Below, piece after piece: positions 17,701 to 20,700 of a stretch of DNA of 64,000 nucleotides. The DNA lies in contig CM082578.2 of the NCBI GenBank assembly GCA_040954595.2, positions 14,802,998 to 14,866,997 of the forward strand. The letters are read 5' to 3'. The stretch's first letter is position 1. Each line of letters starts with the position of its first letter. The DNA comes from Balanoglossus misakiensis (taxonomy: Eukaryota > Animalia > Hemichordata). A program made the position numbers and the translations under genes. Below the pieces are notes generated by a model. The model saw nothing but the letters and a program-made list of their open reading frames with translations, ran no database searches and had not been told where the DNA came from.

Positions 17701-20700
17701 GGTTAAGGGTATCATTAATTAACCATTGCTAGGTCGAACACAGCGACTGGGTGAATTTCCAACTGAAGCAAAATTCTCAAGGATTTTTTTTCTTCAGGAC
17801 TTTTAAACACTCTATGACATTTGACCATATCTGCAGACACAGACAGAAATGCTCAGTTTTCAAGAATGTCAGTCATAGTAGTCCCGTTTCATAATAGTTT
17901 CATCATGTTTATTTTACCTGGCATCTGGGTCATATTCAGACCATACCCGCACAAACTCATCGAGGTGATGAGGGCCCAGGATGGACCAGTCTCTGGTCAA
18001 ATAATCAAAGTTGTCCATGATGACAGCCACAAACAAGTTGATCACCTGGATGGAATCAAAACAGCAGAGGATTATTCCGTCTTCTCTGCAAAATGACGCA
18101 CAGGTCAAACTAACGAGTGAACACAATCAAGCAAATGATAAAATACCAAGCAGGTACCCGCAGATAATAACAATTATACAAGAGATGAATTATCTTTTGA
18201 AAACAAAAGTACTGATATGACTGCAATGGTATCGGACGAGATACTTACCAGAAATGAACAGAGAATGTAGAAGGATATAAAGTATGGGTAGGAAAACCAT
18301 GTGCCACAATTATCCCCGGCATTTTCTGACCTGGGATCACATTTAGCAGATGGTACATTCGTACATGCTAACATGATTTCCTGCCAGGCCTCTCCTGTCG
18401 CTGATCTGCAAGAAAAATTGGAGGAAATTGGCACACTGTCTTAAATGCTCAGTCGTACAAAACAGGCAAAATATAGTAGACCACAGTATATGAGTGATAT
18501 TTGACTCGTCTTTTTAGTCAAATAAAATCCTTATTTAGGCACACTTAAAAAGCACAATGATAGAACATAATTATGCAACAGAGAAATAATGTTATTAAAA
18601 TAAAATCAAGCAAGACTGAGACAAAAACTTCAAAACTGATATATAACAAGATTACTCATCAGCAAGCTGATCCTAGATGTAAATTACATTTTCAGTCAAA
18701 ACAGCAGTAAAGGAATAATGTGCATGACTGGCTTGTTTGTGACTACATACCTAAATAAAAGCAACACAGACTGAATAAAAGTTTGAAAGTTGTTGTTTCG
18801 ATTTATCGGTGTTTCGTCATCAAGAGCAATTTTTCCGAAAATCTACATCAAGAGAAGGAAACAAACAAAAGGAAACAAAAAGCACAGAACAAAAAAAAAA
18901 TTTACCATGCGCTGAACACACTCACCACAAAACAGACGTTTACGGATATGTATTCATACTTGAATATATACATACCTAAACAAGACTAAGAGTGCAGCTG
19001 GGAAGGTTTGGAAATTGTTGTTACGGTCGATGGCTGTATCGTCATTAATAGCAATTTTTCCAAACATCTGTTAGTGAGAGAAGTGCAGGAGATGAAAGTT
19101 TAAGAATCTACGAGATGCGGTTAGTCGGCTATGAAGAATATATCAGGTGACAGACATGCAGATAGCCTGTCTTAAAATTAATTAACTATCTCCATTCACA
19201 TGCTGATTATAAACTCATTGATGGAAAAGCCACTCATTCATCCTTTCACAAGAGAAGATTTCAAACACTGGAAATCCAAGTGGTTATTACTTGATTACAG
19301 TTAGTGTTCATTTTCTCATTTCTGTAAGCAAGAGTTCCAAATATCAAAGTAGTGTATGTTAATACCCATGCACATTGGCTCAAGAGCATGCATTATTCAA
19401 TACAAGTCATTGTCAATGACACAATCCCTGCAAAATGTTTAGAAAACATTACTGGAAGTCAAGTTTGAAGAAATAATCCAAAAAATGTCATTAAAAATGG
19501 CTGCTGCAAAATGAAGTACAAATATCATAAAGTATATTCTCCTTGGGTATAAACAAGTCACCTGGTGGCCTATTATAAGCTCCATTGTAATCTTTGACAT
19601 AACATATTAAGGGATATGTTAGTGAAGAATTTGTATATCAAATATCAAAGTTGACTGAAATTGCCCCCCAAAATATCACATTGCAGATTTCATCCTAATT
19701 TGATCTTCCCCAGGGACCTGAATACTAAAAATAATGAAGGTGAGTAGGAAGAAGTCAACTGACTGTGGATTGACACTGGGTGAATGCCAGATAAGCAGTC
19801 TATCTGACCAGCTGTCTTACAGTAATTGTCCGGAACATGAAGAAGAAACAAAGCTCTTACCTGCATACCAATGACAGCATAGATGAAGAACAGCATTACA
19901 ATAAGAAGTGCTACATATGGCAAAGCCTGCAGAAGTAAAGGAACAAACCACGAGAGTTATTATAAGGTGTTTCATTCTAGCACAGTTTACTTCATGTTTC
20001 CAAAACATAACAAAATCAGGTTTGTCTGGTGCTTATGAATGGCGGAGATCTCCTCTGGAAAGCCAGAAAGTGAAAACATGAGACCAAGCCACTATACCTG
20101 AAAGGACTTTATGAATGTCCAAAGCAGGGTCCGGATGCCTTCGCCTCTACTCAAAAGCTTGACCAATCTCAGCACACGAAAGAGTCGAAAGAAATTAATG
20201 CTAATGAACTCTTGAGACGTCTGTAATTACAGGTGGACAACAGAGGTAGAAATATTAATGCATGGTTGCTTCTTGTCATCTTGGACAGACGTGTTTTATC
20301 ATTTCTATCTGCAGAGCTACATGTATGTGAACATCAGACAGGAACAATGAGAATGCCAACTACACTGGGATCTACACGGAATCTAAAGAGTCTTACACTA
20401 GATATACTGAAGTGACTACATTCAGTATCATGTAGTTGTGCATTCACATTTAACATTTACACCATCACACCTTCCCTCCTTGTCTGTGTATGACCTGTTT
20501 TTGTTTTGTTTTGTTTCATTGTTTCCATGGAAATTTTAGGGGTGTCACAGCCATTTTGAAGAGAACATTAAAGGAATGATATTGTCAAATCATCAAAGCT
20601 TGTGAAAGGCCTCCTTCACTTCTTGATAATCCCTTTTTGGTGTTATTTTTTTACACTGAATTAGTTGGTGAAACATTTAGGTTCCATTTTTCGCAAGTCT

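What the first reader, a model, noticed from the sequence alone, without database searches (positions are those of the whole stretch)
18751..19067. Second mutually exclusive pair: alternative domain IV turret and pore helix next to the selectivity filter
Seen: two intact 92-nt exons, [31 protein letters not shown] and [31 protein letters not shown], both phase 0 to 2 and 133 nt apart, lie directly upstream of the TGEAW filter exon. They differ in the placement of acidic residues and in a Pro/Ile swap at the start of the pore helix. Established: alternative turret exons in invertebrate Cav3 channels (domain II exon 12a/12b) switch Na+/Ca2+ permeability, and vertebrate Cav1.2 has a single exon here. 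Inference: splicing may tune permeation, conductance or pore-blocker binding in this Cav1. With the IS4 pair it gives at least four core isoforms.
Basis: partly seen in the sequence, partly recalled or inferred. Interest (0 to 1): 0.8.

Follow-up and report, generated by a model that had tools for sequence, protein, structure and literature searches.

The report
Twin pore-loop exons in calcium channel
An invertebrate L-type calcium channel gene carries two old, intact copies of the small exon that builds the outer loop and first pore helix of its fourth repeat, likely spliced in one at a time to give two channels predicted to differ modestly in gating rather than in which ion they pass.

Summary
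Two 92-nt, phase 0-to-2 exons (A 19067-18976, B 18842-18751, minus strand, 133 nt apart) sit between the IVS5 exon and the TGEAW filter exon of a Cav1 gene with an EEEE filter. Either alone keeps the frame; both or neither give a premature stop. The copies share 19 of 30 residues; synonymous sites are near saturation and the flanks match at chance level, so both copies are old and under selection. Mutually exclusive splicing is inferred, not observed. No second copy appeared in 80 related loci or 19 annotated isoform sets, none from a close relative. The Cav3 exon 12 analogy is weak: that switch needs a lysine in domain II, whereas these domain IV copies have equal length, equal charge, the same two basic residues and no cysteine. 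Modest tuning of gating, or of outer-mouth ligand binding, is likelier than a Na/Ca switch. Two leads: exon A's donor is the most base-paired of 29 donors in the gene, and copy B looks chordate-like while A looks protostome-like. The scan had not noted this exon before; it noted a domain II turret pair in another Cav1. Verdict: new member of a known kind.

The parts
18976..19067 (-). Exon copy A (5' copy): end of IVS5, short L5IV turret and most of pore helix P1IV; Pro-Ala-Ala-Leu at positions 23-26, Val28
18751..18842 (-). Exon copy B (3' copy): same segment; Ile-Gln-Ser-Val at positions 23-26, Asn14, Leu28
18843..18975 (-). 133-nt intervening intron; no AG in the last 69 nt before the acceptor; branch candidates 36 and 74 nt from A's donor
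18937..18982 (-). Predicted hairpin that pairs exon A's 5' splice site with intron sequence including the +36 branch candidate (lead, noticed after the fact)
19861..19926 (-). Upstream exon, IVS5 (ends GMQ, phase 0), single copy
18249..18405 (-). Downstream exon: end of P1, filter Glu (TGEAW), P2, L6IV and start of IVS6, single copy
42646..42758 (-). Context: IS3-S4 alternative exon a (113 nt)
42452..42567 (-). Context: IS3-S4 alternative exon b (116 nt), 78-nt intron after copy a

Best explanation
This Cav1 gene holds two old, intact tandem copies of the domain IV S5-P1 exon that are likely spliced one per message, giving two calcium-selective channels predicted to differ modestly in voltage-dependent gating. 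Shown: either copy alone keeps the frame and both or neither cause a premature stop; both copies keep the conserved core; the EEEE filter lies outside the swapped exons. Inferred: wrong products are removed by nonsense-mediated decay; a hairpin over A's donor may bias the choice towards B until it is opened. Inferred: the cluster of changes at the start of P1 (positions 23-26, 28) repacks P1 against S5 and the neighbouring voltage sensor III, and the shifted loop acids alter polar contacts around the conserved Arg at the exon junction, moving activation or inactivation by a few millivolts.
For: Frame test. Selection: pS 0.82 vs pN 0.19; about 15 of 29 differences synonymous, P about 2e-4; flanks 13 of 58 and 13 of 60 identical vs 63 of 92 in the exon; a neutrally decaying copy kept this much in 9 and 7 of 20,000 runs at 0.3 substitutions per site. 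Splice scores lie inside the range of 25 other exons of the gene. Both copies score inside the range of 89 homologous segments (96 and 106 bits; range 64-119). Ciona proteins carry B's IQSV helix start as their only listed form. In C. elegans 14 of 19 non-3n clusters rely at least partly on NMD (PMC4165533 passages). In Cav1.3, R1401 is the junction Arg of this exon (numbering); it contacts the domain IV loop, and R1401A shifts activation by about -5.4 mV; F1362A in IVS5 shifts it by about +11 mV (PMC13462451 section 7). An S1-pore-helix interface is needed for Kv gating (PMC2650729 abstract). A's donor is the most paired of 29 in 4 of 4 window sizes.
Against: Use of either copy is inferred from genomic sequence alone. 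No relative with the same pair was found (0 of 80 loci, 0 of 19 isoform sets), so conservation across species is not shown. Most of the 11 substitutions are common among orthologues (position 23 is Pro in only 65 of 97 distinct segments), so the two channels could be nearly equivalent. At 0.2 substitutions per site a neutral copy passed in 287 and 250 of 20,000 runs. The P1-to-sensor-III contact is carried over from Kv and from general architecture, not computed here. The hairpin was noticed after the fact (3 of 200 shuffles fold as well) and the whole 461-nt region folds no better than shuffles (z -0.83).
Confidence: 0.62

Rival explanations
1. Both copies are used alternatively but the main difference is at the outer mouth: binding of peptide toxins, metal ions or extracellular partners, or folding and surface delivery.
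For: Exon positions 9-10 align with Cav2.2 D1628/D1629, named as ziconotide contacts in PMC10761187 (passages). Five of the 11 differences lie in the loop (positions 7, 8, 10, 12, 14).
Against: Both copies keep acids at 9-10. In the same review the listed calciseptine and dihydropyridine contacts lie outside this exon and alpha2-delta contacts loops I-III. Neither copy has an N-glycosylation sequon.
Confidence: 0.14
2. Splicing switches ion selectivity or conductance, as Cav3 exons 12a/12b do.
For: Same kind of segment (S5-P1, ending before the filter; PMC4436565 passages). Domain IV loops (L6) affect Na/Ca passage in Cav3 chimeras (PMC7382465 passages). B clusters three acids at 8-10; A spreads them to 14.
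Against: No lysine, cysteine, length or net-charge difference; domain IV rather than II; EEEE filter and the domain II Asp are present and unswapped; L5IV is described as always short (PMC6259924 passages).
Confidence: 0.08
3. Both copies are used but are functionally equivalent; they persist because each is the one included in some tissue.
For: Most substitutions are conservative and occur among single-exon orthologues.
Against: Four adjacent changes at the P1 start (positions 23-26); tandem-duplicated exons in other channels have documented effects (PMC9741552 section 16).
Confidence: 0.1
4. One copy is a recently silenced or rarely used relic, or an assembly artefact.
For: No homologue with the pair was found; A's donor is predicted to be occluded; an identical double copy in a turtle Cav1.1 prediction shows that artefacts of this exon occur (P0362).
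Against: The copies differ at 29 of 92 nt with a synonymous excess and unrelated flanks, unlike an assembly duplicate; both keep splice sites and 15 of 17 highly conserved positions identical.
Confidence: 0.06

Closest known systems
Tandem duplicated, mutually exclusive exons of Cav alpha-1 genes (human CACNA1C/D three events each; fly Ca-alpha1D two, cacophony three; PMC9741552 section 16)
   Same: Homologous same-phase exon pair in a Cav1 gene, conservative substitutions, frame-enforced exclusivity.
   Different: Different exon. The human pairs listed in PMC5740500 supplement file 3 are IS6, IVS3 and the C-terminal EF-hand exon. The positions of the fly events are in a figure that is not held, so they were not mapped; 8 housefly proteins do not vary at this exon.
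Invertebrate Cav3 exons 12a/12b (Lymnaea LCav3; PMC9694082 abstract and section 4, PMC4436565 passages)
   Same: Alternative exons that span S5, the turret and P1 and end before the filter.
   Different: Domain II of a T-type channel with an EEDD filter; the exons differ in length and cysteines and the switch is a lysine. None of these features holds here.
NALCN exons 15a/15b and 31a/31b (PMC4436565 passages)
   Same: Duplicated pore exons in an invertebrate four-domain channel, exon 15 pair reported in echinoderms and hemichordates.
   Different: They swap the filter residue itself (Glu/Lys); here the filter Glu is on the next, single exon.
Ciona Cav1 (P0253, P0363 and relatives)
   Same: Carries the same 18 residues as copy B from position 13 to 30, including IQSV.
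   Different: Only one form among 9 C. savignyi proteins; other tunicates have FQAV or LQAV, so the match may be convergent.

Membership tests
Cav1 (L-type) alpha-1 subunit | Four repeats with EEEE filter and C-terminal IQ motif | tested here: met
   TMEGW, TGEDW, TFEGW, TGEAW and IQDYFR exons in order; first exons lie outside what was found in the window
Cav1 (L-type) alpha-1 subunit | Closest homologues are Cav1 | tested here: met
   Named hits are L-type channels, 74-76% identity over repeats III-IV; best PDB matches Cav1.1/1.2
Tandem duplicated mutually exclusive exons | Adjacent homologous exons of equal phase and similar length with intact splice sites | tested here: met
Tandem duplicated mutually exclusive exons | Double inclusion and double skipping are non-productive | tested here: met
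   Stops in exon B (A+B) and in the filter exon (neither)
Tandem duplicated mutually exclusive exons | Both copies under purifying selection | tested here: met
   (within-gene comparison only)
Tandem duplicated mutually exclusive exons | Transcripts use each copy singly | not testable with these tools
   Needs RNA reads from this organism
Tandem duplicated mutually exclusive exons | Steric block: branch point under 50 nt from the upstream donor (PMC5740500 passage) | tested here: inconclusive
   Candidates at +36 and +74; two AGs follow the +36 site, which favours +74
Cav3 exon 12a/12b selectivity switch | Located in the domain II turret of an EEDD channel | tested here: not met
   Domain IV of an EEEE channel
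Cav3 exon 12a/12b selectivity switch | One exon adds a lysine; exons differ in length and cysteines | tested here: not met
   K4 and R15 in both, no Cys, both 92 nt
Cav3 exon 12a/12b selectivity switch | Isoforms differ in Na+/Ca2+ permeability | not testable with these tools
   Needs electrophysiology

The most novel reading that the evidence does not exclude
The pair is a relic of a duplication older than the split of chordates from echinoderms and acorn worms: chordates kept only the B-type exon, this lineage kept both, and an RNA hairpin on A's donor switches an L-type channel between two outer pores with measurably different conductance or block, the first splice-tuned domain IV pore in a Cav1.
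Probability: 0.1. Interest if true: 0.7.

Novelty: new member of a known kind. Interest (0 to 1): 0.36.

Why it matters
Tandem exon duplication in Cav channels is a well-known, repeatedly invented device, so the pair itself is not surprising. Its position is the new part: a natural swap of the short domain IV turret and P1 helix in an L-type channel was not found in the searches made. It supplies a ready-made two-isoform experiment on a segment whose role in Cav1 gating is only starting to be probed (Cav1.3 R1401A). If B proves orthologous to the chordate exon, it would also show where the vertebrate form of this pore segment came from.

Tried and rejected
RNA evidence: no RNA holder listed for 17900-20300, so no reads were laid; this blank is no evidence. 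No whole genome is held. Metagenome scan: 429 pattern matches, 114 confirmed, best 80 kept; none had a second copy. Only 54 of 80 held both flanking exons and only 10 of 80 (L001, L026, L032, L036, L037, L041, L042, L044, L045, L079; read by eye, the script labelled 8; two pairs are near duplicates) had the exon between two introns with both neighbours on the contig. Isoform sets: 19 sets, 99 proteins, no variation at this exon; no echinoderm, hemichordate or amphioxus protein was among the listed hits (searches list only the best 120 each; the first two stop at 2000 aa). Docker-selector pairing: 83 inverted repeats in 18200-19950, of the 25 shown none looked like one docker with a selector at each exon; no orthologous introns to test conservation. 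Glycosylation difference: rejected, no sequon in either copy. Species placement: C-terminal search gave mostly unnamed fragments, the Atlas gave nothing useful, the tree is a quick tree on 28 chosen homologues. The strict criterion in the first simulation was harsher than the data and was replaced. Literature: searches listed no paper on a domain IV S5-P1 exon pair in Cav1; subscription papers (e.g. Copley 2004, seen only as a citation) and figures were not available. Scan notes: no look-alike stretch or note on this exon.

Full report
Observation. Each is 92 nt, starts after AG in phase 0 and ends before GT in phase 2; 133 nt separate them; 793 nt lie between the IVS5 exon (ends 19861) and A, and 345 nt between B and the filter exon (starts 18405). 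They share 63 of 92 nt and 19 of 30 residues. A profile built from 128 homologous segments finds only these two copies on the window's minus strand (61.5 and 60.6; next 3.7).

The gene. Homologues map a Cav1 alpha-1 gene from about 44291 down to 8450, with filter motifs TMEGW, TGEDW, TFEGW, TGEAW and an IQ motif. Nineteen exons from IIIS1 to the IQ region join into one open frame with exon A. Exon-against-window searches show two duplicated slots only: this one and IS3-S4. Identity to named Cav1 proteins is about 74-76% over repeats III-IV. In a quick tree of 29 rows the gene sits on its own branch, outside the supported chordate, arthropod, nematode and three-annelid groups; no echinoderm, hemichordate or amphioxus row was available. 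Other notes on this genome call it an acorn worm; that is a lead compatible with the tree, not tested further.

Exclusivity. With A or B alone the frame is open; A plus B stops inside B; neither stops inside the filter exon. Many junctions follow, so decay of the wrong products is expected; in C. elegans 14 of 19 non-3n clusters depend at least partly on NMD (PMC4165533, passages). Donors score 6.7 for both, acceptors 9.6 and 6.9, inside the ranges of 25 other exons of the gene (0.3-13.5 and 1.9-13.9). A steric block is not established: branch candidates lie 36 and 74 nt from A's donor, and two AGs after the first favour the second, beyond the 50-nt limit used in PMC5740500 (passages). One lead: A's donor folds into a stem with the next 40 intron bases (-11.7 kcal/mol; 3 of 200 shuffles as good) and is the most paired of 29 donors in all 4 window sizes tried, B ranking 8 to 25. 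It was noticed after the fact, and the 461-nt region as a whole folds no better than shuffles.

Both copies are alive. pS is 0.82 and pN 0.19; about 15 of 29 differences are synonymous although only 21% of sites are (P about 2e-4); 9 of the 19 shared residues use different codons. Flanks match at 13 of 58 and 13 of 60 positions. A neutrally decaying copy kept splice sites, frame, 19 of 30 residues and 15 of 17 conserved positions in 287 and 250 of 20,000 runs at 0.2 substitutions per site, 9 and 7 at 0.3, and 0 at 0.5; the flanks indicate the higher values. Both copies score within the range of 89 named homologous segments.

Distribution. None of 80 metagenome loci had a second copy, but only 10 could have shown one. 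None of 19 annotated isoform sets (99 proteins; 14 invertebrate sets, 5 vertebrate) varies at this exon, whereas Artemia isoforms do vary at IS3-S4. One turtle prediction holds two identical copies, likely an artefact. A human MXE table has no entry for this exon (PMC5740500, supplement file 3 searched). So the pair is not general among animals; close relatives were not sampled. Against profiles of 36 protostome and 53 chordate segments, A scores 104 vs 57 bits and B 87 vs 103; the signal is mainly position 28 (Val in 35 of 36 protostome, Leu in 46 of 53 chordate segments) and 14 (Asn in 52 of 53 chordate). The chordate set was gathered with B and Ciona as queries, which biases it, though the human and rabbit PDB chains shown have the same Asn and Leu. 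B's IQSV helix start occurs in 2 of 134 distinct segments, both Ciona. An old deuterostome duplication and convergence both fit.

What the segment does. It matches Cav1.1 1288-1317, Cav1.3 1371-1400 and Cav2.2 1620-1649. In a model of a lamprey homologue S5 ends at exon position 2, the loop spans 3-21 and P1 starts at 22 (mean pLDDT 64, loop low; best fold matches are Cav1). The 11 differences fall at 1, in the loop (7, 8, 10, 12, 14) and at the P1 start (23-26, 28). Both copies have three acids, K4 and R15, no cysteine and no sequon. The Cav3 switch depends on a domain II lysine that neutralises the filter aspartate (PMC9694082, abstract and section 4), with domain IV L6 contributing (PMC7382465, passages); L5IV is described as always short (PMC6259924, passages). 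None of that maps onto this pair. Gating is a better fit: Cav1.3 R1401, the arginine split by this exon's 3' junction, contacts the domain IV loop, and R1401A shifts activation by about -5.4 mV; F1362A in IVS5, at the interface with IIIS4, shifts it by about +11 mV (PMC13462451, passages and section 7 part 1; my numbering assumes the PDB chain's). Kv channels need an S1-to-pore-helix contact (PMC2650729, abstract), and sensor-to-pore contacts across repeats tune Cav1.1 (PMC8553663, abstract). That positions 23-26 face voltage sensor III is my inference. Positions 9-10 correspond to ziconotide contacts D1628/D1629 of Cav2.2, but both copies keep acids there; listed calciseptine, dihydropyridine and alpha2-delta contacts lie elsewhere (PMC10761187, passages). 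Against any large effect: position 23 is Pro in only 65 of 97 distinct segments.

Known kind. Ten independent tandem exon duplications are catalogued in human and fly Cav genes, all in different exons (PMC9741552, passages, section 16 and supplement search). The fly Ca-alpha1D events could not be mapped because the figure is not held; PMC4174434 (passages) names exons 15/16 without a domain. PMC4436565 and PMC12370356 (passages) cover NALCN, Cav3 and cacophony pairs. Searches listed no paper on a domain IV S5-P1 pair in Cav1. The scan noted a domain II turret pair in another Cav1 and nothing on this exon.

Verdict. A real, old, frame-exclusive exon pair at a position not found elsewhere in these searches; a new member of a familiar kind, likely of modest functional effect. 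Interest 0.36.

Noticed in passing
window 42452-42758 (-): IS3-S4 duplicate pair, 113 and 116 nt, 78-nt intron (shortest of 28 measured in the gene), frame-exclusive; S4 charges are the same and the S3-S4 loop differs. Artemia isoforms vary at the same slot.
   Followed up: partly
window 33996-34120 (-): 125-nt intron in IIS6 with minor-spliceosome (U12-type) signals, GTATCCTTT donor and TTCCTTGAC branch (consensus recalled).
   Followed up: no
window 2-355 (+): Part of a phosphotriesterase-family gene (PF02126, E 4.6e-13) on the opposite strand, downstream of the channel.
   Followed up: no
window 20221-24190 (-): 4-kb intron at the IVS3-S4 loop, where vertebrates have alternative exons (recalled); no duplicate of the IVS3 exon was detected; small loop exons were not sought.
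   Followed up: partly
window 39739-39833: (ATG)n/(CAT)n microsatellite, about 32 copies, starting a few bases after the donor of the domain I filter exon.
   Followed up: no
window 44300-64000: No match to the N-terminal and IS1 exons of four homologues; the gene's first exons probably lie beyond a long intron outside the window.
   Followed up: partly
L030 3562-4200 and L047 4653-5183: Two metagenome loci each show two IVS4-S5-linker-like matches upstream of the IVS5 exon, a possible duplicated exon in another Cav1 gene.
   Followed up: no
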